NCBI RefSeq assembly: GCF_056746865.1
Contig: NZ_CM163382.1
Direction: 5' to 3' (one strand)
DNA length: 64,000 bases
Positions 2,712-49,956 of this stretch are shown here, in pieces. Numbering within the stretch: position 1 is the stretch's first letter; each line of letters opens with the position of its first letter. The translations under genes and the position numbers were made by a program. Under the pieces are notes generated by a model. That model saw only the letters and a list, made by a program, of their open reading frames with translations, ran no database searches and had not been told where the DNA came from.

Positions 2712-3466
<755 letters not shown>

Positions 3467-3570
3467 ATCAGCATACTTGTCCTTAGCCTTCTGCAGTGAC
3501 AGCTGGTAGTACAGCGTGCTTCTGGCCAGCCCTGCAGCCTTTAACAGGTCAGACTGGCAGTGTCCGCACC

Positions 3571-4092
3571 TCAGGCTCCGGATGACTTTCGTTTTTTCTC
3601 CAGCTCCTGGCGCTTTTTTTCCAGGAGATGCTCCTGCATGGCTTTCAGATATGCATTTTCTGCGCGAAGATAACGCAGCTCATTCTTCATCTCTTCCGGC
3701 GTCATGTTTGCCTCGTTTTCATGGGTATCATCAGAACGGGTCATACTTTTCTCCTTCCTGCGCCTGATAAAGGCCTCATTACCAGATTTGCGGTAGCCTT
3801 TTATCCAGTTTTTAACCGTGTTGTGGCTGGGAATGTTAAACCGGGCAGCTACCCGGGGTAGAGACTCAGAATGCCCGAGAGCATAAAGAACCACGCAAAG
3901 TTTATCTTCAGGAGAATAGCTACGCTTGTGTCTGCAATCCAGTGCCCGAGGACCGTGAAGAAGAAAAAGATTAATCCAGTGTGAGAGGCTGGTGTGAGAA
4001 AGTTGAAAGAGTTTTGCCGTAGAAATGATGCCTGCATGACCAGCCAGGTAATGATTTACAGCGGCAAGTTTTACTTCAAATGAATGTTTCAT
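3571..4092 (-). CDS. insJ: IS150 transposase OrfA (InsJ), HTH DNA-binding protein, 173 aa
   Basis: Translation MKHSFEVKLAAVNHYLAGHAGIISTAKLFQLSHTSLSHWINLF...; ATG at complement 4090..4092 (ORF track starts 3 codons earlier at GTG). Confidence 0.9.
   Translation of the reverse strand: MKHSFEVKLAAVNHYLAGHAGIISTAKLFQLSHTSLSHWINLFLLHGPRALDCRHKRSYSPEDKLCVVLYALGHSESLPRVAARFNIPSHNTVKNWIKGYRKSGNEAFIRRRKEKSMTRSDDTHENEANMTPEEMKNELRYLRAENAYLKAMQEHLLEKKRQELEKKRKSSGA
3613..3620 (-). other. Programmed -1 ribosomal frameshift slippery heptamer A-AAA-AAG of IS150
   Basis: cttttttt on + strand = AAAAAAAG on coding strand near 3' end of insJ; IS150 frameshifting is established knowledge. Confidence 0.6.
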
Positions 4093-6115: not shown

Positions 6116-6438
6116 GCAAACAAACCCTGGACAAACAGGTGATAACACCCTGCTTAACGGCTTTTCAGGCCCGGCAGGGGAAAAGTGCGGAGGTAGTCAG
6201 ATAAGTAAAATCTACACGCGCGAATAAGTAGACCACAGCAAAGGGAAAAAGTGTGGGGAAAGAGTGTGCACGAAGCACAAATTTACAAAAATGCAAGTTT
6301 GAAAAGAGACTTTAGCGTTACAAAAAGCAGTAAAAAGGGCCAGTTAACTGGCCCAAATTTTACGCGTCATTGTTTATACATTGCGTTGAAGCGTTTGATT
6401 CACACTAAGGCTAAAGCCCAGTAGCTCGCGGCAGATGA

Positions 6439-7647
6439 TTAAAGGGAGCCATGCGCCTCACGCAACATTTTCTGCTCTGGCTGACGAATCGTCGTAGAGA
6501 GCGCCAGTGACAGAATCAGCAGGGCGAAAATCACGTAGAAGGTCACATAGAAGCCGCCAAACAGTGAGGCGATAATCGACCCACAAATGCTGCCGATACC
6601 GAAACCGAGATAAATCACACCGTAGTTTTTCGCCAGGTTATTGAGGCCGAAGAACTCACTGACCAGTGACGGGAACACCGTGATAGTGCCGCCAAAGTTA
6701 AACGCCACGCAGGCAATCGCTGCAAAGAACGTCACTGCATTCAATGGTGCAAACAGCAGGGCCGCCATACCCACCAGCGAAATCACCTGACCAATGGTGA
6801 TAACACGGATTCGGGCGATTTTGTCAGACAGTATCCCCAGAACCAGACGACCTGAAAGGTTGGCGATGGAAATAACAGTGACTGCATTGGCTGCGGAAAC
6901 CACATCAAGGTGTGCCAGACTTTGGGCGATATCTTTCGCTACCCCAATCACGTACAGGCCGCTCATGCAGGCAGTCAGGAACATTACCGCTAACATCCAG
7001 TACTGCGGTTTACGCATCGACTCTGCCAGCGTGTAATCTTTCTCCACGATACCATTGCTGGTTTTCACTTCCTGTTTTGGTGCGTCTTTCATTAACGTTG
7101 CGCCGAAAACAATCATCACCAGCGCAATCGCTCCCCAAATCACAAATGTTTTTTCCAGACCCACCGTTTCGAGCAGCTGCGTGTCGATAAATTTGAACCC
7201 CAGGCTACCCAGACCATAAGAACCGATAGCGAACGCGGAGATCAGACCTTTACGCTCCGGGAACCACTTCACGCAGTTAGAGAGCGTCAGCAGGTAACCC
7301 GCGCCATCCGCCAGACCGACCAGCACACCGGCGCTTAACCACAGCATCATCAGGTTGTCAGAATGCGCTGTCAGGAAGAAGCCTAATCCCAGCAAAATGC
7401 CGGAAGCCATAGTGACGCGTTTAACGCCAAAACGTTCCTGTAATTTCCCCGCAACAGAAGATGAAATTGCCAGCCCCAGACTTAACAAGCCGAAAGAGAA
7501 AGCGACCTGGCTTACCGGCGCATCCAGCTTGGCAGAAAGCGCGCCGTTAAACAGGCTCCAGGTATAAACCGACCCCAGCGCAAACTGGGTAATGATAGTA
7601 CCGATGAGTGTCAACCAGCGGGTACGCTGATAATTTGAAGGTGTCAT
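6439..7647 (-). CDS. yhjX: MFS transporter YhjX (oxalate/formate antiporter-like; YpdA/YpdB-regulated)
   Basis: Translation MTPSNYQRTRWLTLIGTIITQFALGSVYTWSLF...; 12-TM MFS pattern; start at ATG 7645..7647. Confidence 0.92.
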   Translation of the reverse strand: MTPSNYQRTRWLTLIGTIITQFALGSVYTWSLFNGALSAKLDAPVSQVAFSFGLLSLGLAISSSVAGKLQERFGVKRVTMASGILLGLGFFLTAHSDNLMMLWLSAGVLVGLADGAGYLLTLSNCVKWFPERKGLISAFAIGSYGLGSLGFKFIDTQLLETVGLEKTFVIWGAIALVMIVFGATLMKDAPKQEVKTSNGIVEKDYTLAESMRKPQYWMLAVMFLTACMSGLYVIGVAKDIAQSLAHLDVVSAANAVTVISIANLSGRLVLGILSDKIARIRVITIGQVISLVGMAALLFAPLNAVTFFAAIACVAFNFGGTITVFPSLVSEFFGLNNLAKNYGVIYLGFGIGSICGSIIASLFGGFYVTFYVIFALLILSLALSTTIRQPEQKMLREAHGSL

Positions 7648-7730
7648 GGCAGTATTCCTGCAGTAATAAAAAGGAAAAATCTCTGCTGACAACCATAACG
7701 AAGTGCACTTTATGCCTGGGGAAAAACGGC

Positions 7731-7761
7731 ATGAAATGCCATCAGAACGGAATGAAATGCA
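7731..7761 (-). promoter_or_regulatory. Direct repeats ATGAAATGC(C/A) spaced 21 bp apart (reverse complement GGCATTTCAT), consistent with the YpdB (LytTR) binding site in the yhjX promoter
   Basis: Repeats at 7731..7740 and 7752..7761 read directly; YpdB control of yhjX is established knowledge. Confidence 0.55.
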
Positions 7762-7875
7762 TTAGTTCAGGAATGAATGACTCGACAATTATTCACCAAA
7801 TTTATTATTTAGTAAGTTAGCACCCACTATCGCCACAACTGTTGTTATCCAATGGTTTCAATTGTATCTATAACG

Positions 7876-8580
7876 TTAAAATCTGGCACTAACCCCCATC
7901 GTATACAGATAGTCGCTATTGTTAGTGGTATTTTCTGTCTGAGATAGCGCCGCATAGGCAGCAATATTTTGATTGAGCAACATATCAGCGCCTACGGTGA
8001 CATCCAGCCAGTTGCCGTTCTGGTTTGTCGCCGTCATCCGGCTCAGGCCTGATTGCGCCTTCCAGATATTCTCGCCAAATTGCTGGTTATAGCTGATTTG
8101 CGCCCAGGGTCGGAGATCGCCAAGCCGGGAGTCAACACGCCAGCCTAAGGTACTCACGCTGGCATGCCATAACGGATCGGCCAGCGTGGTAGTACTGTCG
8201 CCAAACTCGTTATACATCGAGGTGGTTGTGCCATCGTAATGTAATGCCGCGACCGGGCCGGTTGTAACCTGCTCATATAAAGGAAAATTCCAGCCCATAC
8301 TCATACTGCTGGTCACATCCACAGGAGTTTCTTCCGCCAGATTGACTTCCAGTCCCAGCGCCCTTTGGCTACTTTGAATACGTTGCGACAAAATATCGTT
8401 GTAATCAGGTTGATGATCACTATCCCAGGTGTAACGCTCTGTGGAATGTCCGGGTTGCGTATCAACGATATATTCTTGTTGCCAGGCGTAAGCTGTGTTG
8501 AGAAAAAAGGCACTGATTACCACACTCGCCAGCAGGCTTAGCTGCCAGCGACCACCGCTTTTTTTTATGATCATTAACAC
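7876..8580 (-). CDS. yhjY: YhjY, conserved protein with autotransporter-like beta-barrel domain
   Basis: Translation MLMIIKKSGGRWQLSLLASVVISAFFLNTAYAWQQEY... signal peptide plus beta-rich domain ending in F; start may be 2 codons downstream. Confidence 0.85.
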   Translation of the reverse strand: MLMIIKKSGGRWQLSLLASVVISAFFLNTAYAWQQEYIVDTQPGHSTERYTWDSDHQPDYNDILSQRIQSSQRALGLEVNLAEETPVDVTSSMSMGWNFPLYEQVTTGPVAALHYDGTTTSMYNEFGDSTTTLADPLWHASVSTLGWRVDSRLGDLRPWAQISYNQQFGENIWKAQSGLSRMTATNQNGNWLDVTVGADMLLNQNIAAYAALSQTENTTNNSDYLYTMGVSARF

Positions 8581-8731
8581 GACTCCAGGGAAGAGCCGAA
8601 TTCGGCAATATTATTGTCATTGTATGAAGGATATCGGGCATAGTAGCCCTGTATTAAATATTGACTTTTTCACCGATGCGTCAAGAAAAGCGGCTGAAAT
8701 TTTTACGATCGGGTACATAGCGAGGGAAAGT

Positions 8732-30507: not shown

Positions 30508-31332
30508 TTACATATGTGCCGCGATTAACCGTTGGTTATCCTGGTACATTGCGAACAGGTAGTTGTTATAACTCTTCCCTTTGGTCGAGTAGCCCTTCAG
30601 CTTGTGAATCATCGCTGTGGCAGTCACTTCCTGATCTGCTTTACGCAGCTGTGCACGCGATTTACGGAACGAAGAGTAAGCCGGATGCGTATTCAGGTTA
30701 GTAACATAGGCGCTCACCGATTCTTTGACAGAACTAAACTGTGAGTACCCCTTCACTTTACCCGGCGCATTAGTACAACGTCCTTTCATGCATTTCATGC
30801 CGAACAGATTGTTGTTGTTGCGCGCCAGCTTCGACGTTCCCCAACCGCTTTCTGCTGCAGCCATCGTCGCTACCATACTGGTGGGGATAATGTCTACGCG
30901 TTCAAGCAAGGTATTCCACGGGATTTTTCGCGTATTACCAGACCACTTCACCTTGTAGCGTTTGGCGATGTCTTTCAGACGCGCACGCTCAGCAGGTGAC
31001 CATTGGCCCTGATACTGTTTTGAAATGAGCCAGTTACGTTCCGCAGTAATGGCCGCATTTTGGCTGGTAATGTAAGGCATTACAGTCCGGAGAAACGCCT
31101 TTTTCCTTGGTGTTCCGGAAGGGTATTTTCGCAAATCAGGAAGTGAACTACTCTTTGCACTATTGCGAGAATACTCTTGTTTACTGCTTACCTGTTTATT
31201 ACTAGCTTTAGTTAAGTGGGACTTTTGACTCGCTGTTGTTGTGTGCGTCTTCGCTAACACCTCACTCGAAAACACCAGAGTGAGTAACATAAGAATCATC
31301 GCCCCATATCGTCGTATGGGAGTCAAAATCAT
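30508..31332 (-). CDS. bax: Bax protein (putative glucosaminidase, FlgJ-like domain)
   Basis: Translation MILTPIRRYGAMILMLLTLVFSSEVLAKTHTTTASQKSHL...MVATMAAAESGWGTS...NLFGMKC. Confidence 0.9.
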   Translation of the reverse strand: MILTPIRRYGAMILMLLTLVFSSEVLAKTHTTTASQKSHLTKASNKQVSSKQEYSRNSAKSSSLPDLRKYPSGTPRKKAFLRTVMPYITSQNAAITAERNWLISKQYQGQWSPAERARLKDIAKRYKVKWSGNTRKIPWNTLLERVDIIPTSMVATMAAAESGWGTSKLARNNNNLFGMKCMKGRCTNAPGKVKGYSQFSSVKESVSAYVTNLNTHPAYSSFRKSRAQLRKADQEVTATAMIHKLKGYSTKGKSYNNYLFAMYQDNQRLIAAHM

Positions 31333-49343: not shown

Positions 49344-49754
49344 TTAAACGCCCGGCAATACACGCCGGGCAGCTTCTGCCAGAAACGCACTTCTGTTGGC
49401 GTAGTCTGGGTTATTGCGCACGTAGGTATCAATCTTGTTCAGTAACCTTTTCGGCATCGTAATATTGATACGTTCAGCCCGACCTTCGAACTGATTCATA
49501 TTGATATCCACCAGCAACCATTGCCCGCCAATAAAGTCCTGCGCACGCTGGACCAGATGTGTTTCCACAGAGCCTGGAAGCGGCAACTCTTCATTCATCT
49601 CGCATAAGGTTTCGAAGTGCGCGACCAGTGCACTTCGCGCATCCTGGAAAGCGTTGTCCAGCGTATCACCAGCAAAATAACAGCCTGGAACATCAGGGAA
49701 AAAACCGCTGGCGCTGCCGTCAGGATCACTGTGGATATAGGCGGGATAAAACAT
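49344..49754 (-). CDS. hicB: HicB-family antitoxin (RNase H-like N-domain plus C-terminal ribbon-helix-helix)
   Basis: Translation MFYPAYIHSDPDGSASGFFPDVPGCYFAGDTLDNAFQDARSALVAHFE...NITMPKRLLNKIDTYVRNNPDYANRSAFLAEAARRVL. Confidence 0.8.
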   Translation of the reverse strand: MFYPAYIHSDPDGSASGFFPDVPGCYFAGDTLDNAFQDARSALVAHFETLCEMNEELPLPGSVETHLVQRAQDFIGGQWLLVDINMNQFEGRAERINITMPKRLLNKIDTYVRNNPDYANRSAFLAEAARRVLPGV

Positions 49755-49770
49755 ATTGCCTCCTGAAATT

Positions 49771-49956
49771 TTAAAATGTTAAACCAGCCTGACGCCCAAT
49801 TTGCGCCAGCGTACCGGGCTTAATATCTTTTTTAGGGTGCGGAACCGTCACCAGACCCGGATGAACAGGGTGGCGGAACTGATGATGACTGCCACGGGTT
49901 CGAATATGTTCCCAGCCATGCTGCTTCAGGATGGCGATCACGTCTGCACTTTTCAC
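49771..49956 (-). CDS. hicA: HicA-family toxin (YcfA-like mRNA interferase), 61 aa
   Basis: Translation MKSADVIAILKQHGWEHIRTRGSHHQFRHPVHPGLVTVPHPKKDIKPGTLAQIGRQAGLTF; 16 bp upstream of hicB on same strand. Confidence 0.8.
   Translation of the reverse strand: MKSADVIAILKQHGWEHIRTRGSHHQFRHPVHPGLVTVPHPKKDIKPGTLAQIGRQAGLTF

What the first reader, a model, noticed from the sequence alone, without database searches (positions are those of the whole stretch)
7731..7780. Direct-repeat YpdB-type operator upstream of yhjX
ATGAAATGCC (7731..7740) and ATGAAATGCA (7752..7761) are direct repeats spaced 21 bp apart, with a third degenerate copy (GAATGAATGA) one helical turn further on. On the yhjX coding strand these read GGCATTTCAT, the motif reported for the LytTR regulator YpdB, which drives strong pyruvate-responsive yhjX induction.
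Basis: partly seen in the sequence, partly recalled or inferred. Interest (0 to 1): 0.3.

Follow-up and report, generated by a model that had tools for sequence, protein, structure and literature searches.

The report
Known YpdB operator upstream of yhjX
The repeats are real and are the already characterised binding site through which the pyruvate-sensing regulator YpdB (PyrR) switches on the E. coli transporter gene yhjX, so the finding is correct but ordinary; comparing species adds a conserved third repeat in the same register.

Summary
The window is E. coli chromosome. yhjX lies at 7647..6439 on the minus strand.

**Observation.** It is confirmed. ATGAAATGCC (7731-7740) and ATGAAATGCA (7752-7761) are direct repeats 21 bp apart, start to start. 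On the yhjX strand they read GGCATTTCAT (proximal) and TGCATTTCAT (distal).

**What it is.** This is the published YpdB/PyrR (LytTR response regulator) operator of PyhjX. The DNase I-protected K-12 fragment used by Behr et al. 2016 maps to 7784..7727 and differs at two bases.
- One difference is G->T at the first base of the high-affinity distal site A.
- About 30% of complete E. coli genomes carry that allele, and the position varies between species.

**What species comparison adds** (80 Enterobacteriaceae species):
- Three equally conserved blocks sit at an exact 21-bp period: GTCATTCATTCC, GCATTTCATTCC and GCATTTCATGCC.
- The conserved core is GCATTTCAT(T/G)CC rather than GGCATTTCAT.
- A conserved TAnnnT -10 lies a fixed 37-38 bp from site B.

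**Verdict.** The third repeat as a YpdB site is an inference. I could not read the primary 2013 paper, and no TSS data were found.

The parts
7728..7740 (-). Site B, the promoter-proximal YpdB repeat. It reads GGCATTTCATGCC on the yhjX strand. It is the low-affinity site, with fast on and off rates, in Behr 2016.
   Evidence: The mutated oligos in Table 1 of PMC4847170 define B as the proximal repeat. GCATTTCATGCC is nearly invariant in 79 distinct promoters, with G at position 11 in 79/79.
7749..7761 (-). Site A, the distal YpdB repeat. It reads TGCATTTCATTCC on the yhjX strand. It is the high-affinity site whose occupation is required before B is bound. Base 7761 is the natural variant: T here on the yhjX strand, G in K-12.
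   Evidence: Allele counts are 1654 genomes with the window allele against 3617 with the K-12 allele, out of 5426. Across species position 1 is G in 50 and T in 29 of 79.
7770..7782 (-). Third in-register repeat, called R3 here. It is probably a third YpdB contact site, which is an inference.
   Evidence: G2, T6, T7, C8, A9, T10 and C12 are invariant in 79/79 promoters. Information content is about 2 bits per position. It lies inside the fragment that Behr 2016 say covers all DNase I-protected nucleotides.
7727..7784 (-). The stretch equivalent to the K-12 DNase I-protected fragment used for SPR. This is the whole operator.
   Evidence: The oligo sequence in PMC4847170 Table 1 mapped through the K-12 alignment. 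56 of 58 bases are identical; the differences are at 7761 and 7782.
7723..7726 (-). Conserved T-run (TTTT) immediately downstream of site B.
   Evidence: About 2 bits per position in the 80-species comparison. Its role is not established.
7692..7697 (-). Inferred -10 hexamer TATGGT of the YpdB-dependent yhjX promoter. The inferred TSS is near 7685.
   Evidence: TAnnnT is present in all 81 promoters, and the distance from site B is fixed at 37-38 bp, while the distance to the ATG varies from 30 to 45 bp. This is not an experimental TSS. The alternatives CATAAA (7714..7709) and TAAAGT (7712..7707) are not conserved across genera.
6439..7647 (-). yhjX coding sequence, an MFS transporter. It is the regulated gene.

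Best explanation
Window 7727-7784 is the operator of the pyruvate-responsive yhjX promoter. [quoted passage not shown]

Shown in the literature for K-12:
- Extracellular pyruvate activates the kinase YpdA.
- Activated YpdB (mimicked by the D53E variant) binds as monomers. It binds first to the distal high-affinity site A. It then binds cooperatively and transiently to the proximal site B, which is proposed to recruit RNA polymerase. This is the 'AB-BA' model.

Shown here:
- The window carries that operator with two base changes.
- The sites lie at a strict 21-bp period, which is two helical turns and so one face of the DNA.
- They are conserved across about 80 enterobacterial species as GCATTTCAT(T/G)CC.
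- They sit a fixed 37-38 bp upstream of a conserved TAnnnT -10 with no recognisable -35. That layout is typical of an activator-dependent promoter.

Inferred:
- With a TSS near 7685, site B spans about -55..-43, site A about -76..-64, and the third repeat about -97..-85.
- The third repeat is a further YpdB contact that helps nucleate or stabilise the complex or bend the DNA.
- The G->T change at the first base of site A is functionally tolerated.
For: - **Identity of the locus.**
- **Published motif, A/B assignment and footprint fragment.** PMC4847170.
- **Pyruvate induction, yhjX as sole target.** PMC5552118, PMC6545925.
- **Repeats beyond chance.**
- **Conservation.** Three blocks at about 2 bits per position and an exact 21-bp period, with unconserved spacers and flanks, in 80 species.
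- **Promoter geometry.** Conserved -10 at a fixed distance from site B.
- **Regulator.** It has Response_reg plus LytTR domains and is present in 5422 of 5426 complete E. coli genomes.
- **Variable first base.** The site A allele of this window is in 1654 genomes, and that position alternates G/T across species.
- **Natural variants.** Natural yhjX promoter variants tested in reporters all behaved consistently and responded to pyruvate (bioRxiv 10.1101/2021.07.18.452581).
- **Precedent for three repeats.** Three-repeat LytTR operators with 12-13 bp spacers are known for RcoM1 and CoxC (PMC11347149). The paralogous BtsR footprint fragment of yjiY also contains three copies at 20 and 21 bp.
Against: - No binding or expression experiment exists for this exact allele.
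- No experimental TSS could be found, so positions relative to +1 are inferred from conservation.
- E. coli also has a weaker, non-conserved -10-like hexamer (TAAAGT/CATAAA, 7714..7707). That hexamer would place site B over the -35 instead.
- For the third repeat specifically, Behr 2016 detected only two kinetic binding modes, and binding was lost when site A alone was mutated. R3 plus B therefore do not suffice in vitro. However, R3 lay only 8 bp from the biotin-streptavidin anchor in that fragment.
- The primary paper (Fried et al. 2013, J Bacteriol 195:807) was not available. I cannot say whether it already tested the R3 region.
Confidence: 0.9

Rival explanations
1. Only sites A and B bind YpdB. 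The third block (7770-7782) is conserved for another reason, such as a site for a different protein, a sequence-dependent bend, or an alpha-CTD (UP-like) contact. Its resemblance to the motif would then be partial and coincidental.
For: The published model has two sites and two kinetic modes, and mutating site A alone abolished binding (PMC4847170). R3 differs from A and B at three positions (TCA instead of CAT), and those differences are themselves conserved.
Against: R3 shares 9 of 12 positions with site A, including every position that is invariant in both A and B. It sits at exactly the same 21-bp period in all species. It lies inside the stated DNase I-protected fragment. The paralogous BtsR operator shows the same three-copy layout, and three-repeat LytTR operators are documented.
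Confidence: 0.35
2. The repeats are a chance feature of an AT-rich intergenic region and have no function.
For: The 10-mer alone is only mildly enriched in the window: 3 observed against 0.72 expected, and 4 of 100 shuffles reach 3.
Against: The tandem pattern is unique in 64 kb. Local shuffles reach the pair in 1% of cases and the triple in 0.1%. Conservation is near-perfect with fixed spacing across 80 species while the spacers drift. Published binding data exist for the K-12 sequence.
Confidence: 0.01
3. The element is an operator for the paralogous pyruvate regulator BtsR (YehT) rather than for YpdB.
For: The two systems are paralogous and functionally interconnected (PMC5552118).
Against: The BtsR motif ACC[G/A]CT[C/T]A in tandem is absent from the yhjX upstream region. 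The four 2-3-mismatch hits in the window are at chance level (expected 3.75) and lie elsewhere. The BtsR fragment PyjiY served as the control DNA in the YpdB SPR work.
Confidence: 0.03
4. The repeats are transcribed and act as an RNA element in a long yhjX leader.
For: No mapped TSS was available to exclude this directly.
Against: There is no Rfam match at E<=1 in 7500-8000. A conserved -10 lies downstream of the repeats at a fixed distance. The conservation pattern is of periodic direct repeats, not paired arms. The one inverted repeat that involves the region (7654-7667 with 7761-7774) falls in a spacer that is not conserved. The K-12 sequence is footprinted as DNA by YpdB.
Confidence: 0.02

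Closest known systems
YpdB (PyrR) operator of the E. coli K-12 yhjX promoter (Fried et al. 2013; Behr et al. 2016, PMC4847170)
   Same: It is the same locus and the same element. 56 of 58 bases of the footprint fragment are identical, the GGCATTTCAT-type repeats have the same 11-bp spacer, and orientation and distance to yhjX are the same.
   Different: Site A begins with T instead of G (7761), and there is one change at 7782 next to the third repeat. The comparison here suggests a conserved core of GCATTTCAT(T/G)CC, and a third conserved repeat that the two-site model does not name.
BtsR (YehT) operator of yjiY/btsT, E. coli
   Same: The regulator is a paralogous LytS/LytTR pyruvate system. 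The operator has direct repeats with a 13-bp spacer (about a 21-bp period). The footprint fragment holds three copies at 20 and 21 bp.
   Different: The motif is unrelated (ACC[G/A]CT[C/T]A) and is not present upstream of yhjX.
AgrA, ComE, PlnC and VirR-type LytTR operators
   Same: They have paired 9-11 bp repeats separated by 11-13 bp, usually upstream of the -35 of an activated promoter. This is the family description given in PMC4847170 and PMC11347149.
   Different: The motif sequence differs and there is no family-wide consensus. The details recalled for those systems were not tested here.
RcoM1 and CoxC three-repeat LytTR operators (PMC11347149)
   Same: They have three evenly spaced direct repeats with 12-13 bp spacers. 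All three are needed for efficient CoxC binding.
   Different: These are single-component CO-sensing regulators, and CoxC is a repressor whose repeats overlap the -35. The motif is TTCNNGCA / TTNNNGCN.

Membership tests
YpdB/PyrR operator of PyhjX | Direct repeat of GGCATTTCAT with an 11-bp spacer | tested here: met
   The proximal copy is exact and the distal copy matches 9 of 10 (TGCATTTCAT). The spacer is 11 bp. The motif is as quoted in PMC4847170.
YpdB/PyrR operator of PyhjX | Located in the promoter of yhjX, on the yhjX coding strand, and collinear with the footprinted K-12 fragment | tested here: met
   The ungapped alignment to K-12 MG1655 has 56 of 58 bases of the fragment identical. 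yhjX identity is.
YpdB/PyrR operator of PyhjX | The cognate LytTR response regulator is encoded in the genome | tested here: met
   ypdB is present in 5422 of 5426 complete E. coli genomes, and the K-12 protein has Response_reg plus LytTR domains. It is not in the 64-kb window itself, so it was not checked for the individual source genome.
YpdB/PyrR operator of PyhjX | Physical binding of (phospho)YpdB and pyruvate-dependent activation | not testable with these tools
   This is published for the K-12 allele only. Natural promoter variants are reported as pyruvate-responsive as a group, but not allele by allele.
YpdB/PyrR operator of PyhjX | Repeats lie upstream of the core promoter and TSS | tested here: inconclusive
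   A conserved TAnnnT lies 37-38 bp from site B in all 81 promoters, which places the repeats upstream of -43. No experimental TSS was found.
LytTR-type operator (general) | Two or more 9-11 bp direct or inverted repeats separated by 11-13 bp | tested here: met
   There are three repeats at a 21-bp period, which means 8-11 bp spacers depending on whether the repeat is counted as 10 or 13 nt. The family description is from PMC4847170.
BtsR/YehT operator | Tandem ACC[G/A]CT[C/T]A with a 13-bp spacer | tested here: not met
   There is no match in 7648-7880, even with 3 mismatches allowed.

The most novel reading that the evidence does not exclude
The YpdB operator may be larger than the published two-site 'AB-BA' model. 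A third, equally conserved, in-phase repeat (7770-7782) would be a genuine YpdB contact. In many genera a fourth copy in inverted orientation (GGCATGAAATGC) lies 10-11 bp after site B, between site B and the -10; it is degenerate in E. coli at 7716..7705. The pyruvate-sensing LytTR regulators YpdB and, by the same layout, BtsR would then assemble as three or more protomers on one face of the DNA. A core-promoter site of that kind might also contribute to the pulsed shut-off of yhjX.
Probability: 0.4. Interest if true: 0.35.

Novelty: already known. Interest (0 to 1): 0.15.

Why it matters

The comparison across species adds a modest refinement:
- It defines the constrained bases. The first G of the published 10-mer is free, and three further 3' bases are fixed.
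- One fixed base differs between sites: T in site A and G in site B. That could underlie their different affinities.
- The upstream 'flanking' sequence inside the footprint is a conserved third repeat.

These points would help anyone who builds pyruvate biosensors from PyhjX or models how LytTR regulators assemble on DNA.

Tried and rejected
- **Primary papers.** I tried to read Fried et al. 2013 (by PMC id, DOI and PMID), Behr et al. 2014 and Kraxenberger et al. 2012. None is held. The published positions relative to the TSS, and any earlier test of the R3 region, could not be checked.
- **TSS in the literature.** Searches for a yhjX TSS gave nothing usable.
- **Consensus promoter scan.** It found only GTGCCA-17-TACAAT at 7889..7861, which spans the yhjY stop (7876) and lies upstream of the operator. 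That is at chance level (1 found, 0.8 expected). It found no terminator.
- **CATAAA (7714..7709) as the -10.** This would give a -35 overlapping site B. I rejected it as the conserved promoter because that stretch is not conserved in the Enterobacter and Lelliottia clade, whereas TAnnnT at 7697..7692 is universal. It is not excluded for E. coli itself.
- **RNA element.** There is no Rfam match.
- **BtsR motif.** Absent.
- **Inverted repeat 7654-7667 / 7761-7774.** One arm lies in an unconserved spacer upstream of the promoter, so I treat it as chance.
- **Single motif hit at 30789-30798.** It lies inside bax with no partner copy, so I treat it as chance.
- **Direct fourth copy TGCACTTCGT (7707..7698).** It lies 33 bp from site B, out of the 21-bp register, and is found in only 23 of 79 species. 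I do not count it as a site.

Full report
**Locus.** The window is E. coli chromosome. Bases 6300-8700 match 5422 of 5426 complete E. coli genomes and are 100% identical to strain 118UI and several others. The ORF at 7647..6439 on the minus strand is YhjX, an MFS transporter. yhjY ends at 7876 on the same strand. The finding therefore lies in the 228-bp yhjY-yhjX spacer, 84-133 bp upstream of the yhjX start codon.

**The observation.** The stated strings are at the stated coordinates.
- The repeat finder extends the pair to 15 nt (7725-7739 and 7746-7760, 14 of 15 identical, spacing 21).
- The 10-mer alone is weakly enriched in the window: 3 hits against 0.72 expected. The third hit, inside bax, is isolated.
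- The tandem arrangement is specific. TTCATKCC-N13-TTCATKCC occurs only here, twice and overlapping, with no mismatch. Only 0.23 hits are expected even with two mismatches allowed.
- Shuffling the spacer itself reproduces the pair in 10 of 1000 trials and the in-register triple in 1 of 1000.

Read on the yhjX strand and placed in register, the three copies are:

| Copy | Sequence | Coordinates |
|---|---|---|
| R3 | AGTCATTCATTCC | 7782..7770 |
| A | TGCATTTCATTCC | 7761..7749 |
| B | GGCATTTCATGCC | 7740..7728 |

It is not one turn away.

**Comparison with the literature.**
[quoted passage not shown] They call the copies sites A and B.
- Their Table 1 gives the K-12 fragment, which they say comprises all nucleotides protected in DNase I footprints. 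It also gives the mutated versions, which show that A is the distal copy and B the proximal one.
- I fetched K-12 MG1655 and aligned it. The fragment maps without gaps to window 7784..7727, and 56 of 58 bases are identical.
- In their SPR work the phosphomimetic YpdB-D53E bound site A with high affinity (about 1.2 nM, slow off-rate) and site B with about 21 nM and fast kinetics. Mutating A abolished all binding, while mutating B left A bound. From this they derived the sequential 'AB-BA' model, in which B occupancy recruits RNA polymerase.
- yhjX is reported as the sole YpdB target. It is induced by extracellular pyruvate above about 600 uM (PMC5552118, PMC6545925).
- YpdB has receiver and LytTR domains. 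Its gene is present in 5422 of 5426 E. coli genomes.

**The strain-specific base.** One of the two differences from K-12 is the first base of site A: T here and G in K-12, at window 7761. I used 41-nt queries centred on that base, so that a 28-nt megablast word must span it.
- The window allele is in 1654 genomes and the K-12 allele in 3617, out of 5426.
- Across species the same position is G in 50 and T in 29 of 79 promoters. The equivalent base of site B is T, G, C or A.
- A reporter study of natural E. coli promoter variants found that all yhjX variants behaved consistently and responded to pyruvate (bioRxiv 10.1101/2021.07.18.452581). It does not report alleles individually.

I infer that this base is not a specificity determinant.

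**Comparison across species.** A scan of one genome per species returned 80 loci with YhjX orthologues at 84-99% identity. They come from Escherichia, Citrobacter, Enterobacter, Buttiauxella, Kluyvera, Kosakonia, Lelliottia and other genera.
- Anchoring the upstream regions on site B without gaps gives three blocks of about 2 bits per position, separated by unconserved spacers. Conservation begins abruptly at the third repeat.
- The base counts give R3 = G(T/C)CATTCATTCC, A = GCATTTCATTCC and B = GCA(T/C/G/A)(T/C)TCATGCC.
- In the 13-nt register, positions G2, T7, C8, A9 and T10 are invariant or nearly so (at least 78 of 79) in all three. C12 is too. C13 is invariant in A and B but 73 of 79 in R3.
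- Position 11 is T in R3 and A, and G in B in 79 of 79 promoters.

So the constrained site runs three bases further 3' than the published 10-mer and does not include its first G. The A/B difference at position 11 is fixed, which is a candidate cause of their different affinities. The authors attributed that difference to flanking nucleotides.

**The promoter.** No experimental TSS could be found, and the consensus scan found nothing in the right place. Conservation points to TATGGT at 7697..7692.
- A TAnnnT hexamer is aligned there in all 81 promoters. Two appear as 5-mers only because of alignment gaps.
- Its distance from site B is 37 or 38 bp in every species, while the distance from the hexamer to the ATG ranges from 30 to 45 bp.
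- No recognisable -35 hexamer precedes it, as expected for an activator-dependent promoter.

With an inferred TSS near 7685, site B spans about -55..-43, A about -76..-64 and R3 about -97..-85. E. coli also has TAAAGT/CATAAA at 7714..7707, which would put site B over the -35. That stretch is not conserved in the Enterobacter and Lelliottia clade, so I rank it second.

**The third repeat.**
- Points in favour of it being a YpdB contact:
  - It is in exact register.
  - It shares every position that is invariant in both A and B.
  - It is as conserved as they are.
  - It lies inside the protected fragment.
  - The paralogous BtsR fragment from the yjiY promoter, printed in the same table, has three copies (GCCGCTCA, ACCGCTTA, ACCACTCA) at 20 and 21 bp.
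  - Three-repeat LytTR operators are established for RcoM1 and CoxC (PMC11347149).
- Points against:
  - Only two kinetic modes were seen.
  - R3 plus B did not bind when A was mutated.
- A caveat applies to both points against: in that fragment R3 was 8 bp from the biotin anchor.

I put about 0.55-0.6 on R3 being a real YpdB site. I could not check whether Fried et al. 2013 had already examined it.

**Rivals.**
- Chance is excluded by conservation.
- A BtsR operator is excluded because its motif is absent.
- An RNA element is unlikely. There is no Rfam hit, the conserved -10 lies downstream, and the conservation is of direct repeats rather than paired arms.

**Verdict.** The feature is an already characterised operator, so interest is low. 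The comparative refinement is a small addition that would need a binding experiment: the core motif, the site-specific base, the conserved third repeat and, in some genera, an inverted fourth copy.

Noticed in passing
window 7705-7716 (minus strand); loci L022, L036, L057, L061, L064, L066, L070, L073, L076: Between site B and the conserved -10, many species carry an inverted copy of the YpdB motif (GGCATGAAATGC, the reverse complement of GCATTTCATGCC) at a fixed 10-11 nt after site B. It matches at 9 or more of 12 positions in 38 of 81 promoters, against 0.5% in shuffles, and is perfect in 9 species. E. coli has GGCATAAAGTGC (10 of 12), with the motif's invariant C lost. The copy is absent in Enterobacter and Lelliottia. 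It could be a core-promoter YpdB site or a relic, or it could overlap an alternative -10.
   Followed up: partly
window 7816-7833 (minus strand): A conserved module lies upstream of the operator: GCGATAGTG-N3-(C/T)(A/G)CTAAC, partly palindromic (TAGTG..CACTA). It is found 27-38 bp upstream of the third repeat in many genera that have a long spacer, and is missing where the upstream OMP gene ends close to the operator. There is no Rfam match, and its function is unknown.
   Followed up: partly
Table 1 of PMC4847170 (yjiY/btsT promoter fragment; not in the window): The BtsR footprint fragment contains three motif copies at 20 and 21 bp (GCCGCTCA, ACCGCTTA, ACCACTCA), although the published BtsR site is described as a two-copy repeat. 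This parallels the three-copy layout at yhjX.
   Followed up: partly
window 7761: There is a common natural polymorphism in the first base of the high-affinity site A. The window allele is in 1654 and the K-12 allele in 3617 of 5426 complete E. coli genomes. About 155 genomes matched neither 41-mer and were not examined.
   Followed up: partly
window 2744-4092: An IS3-family IS1397 transposase with a programmed frameshift is inserted between dppA and tRNA-Pro in this strain background.
   Followed up: no
window 6439-7647: RefSeq/PGAP names YhjX 'L-lactate MFS transporter'. [quoted passage not shown]
   Followed up: no
window 49344-49956 (locus L084 17344-17956): A HicA/HicB type II toxin-antitoxin pair sits next to an AraC regulator, an MFS transporter and a GH127 gene cluster, between the yiaK-S (sgb) operon and aldB.
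   Followed up: no
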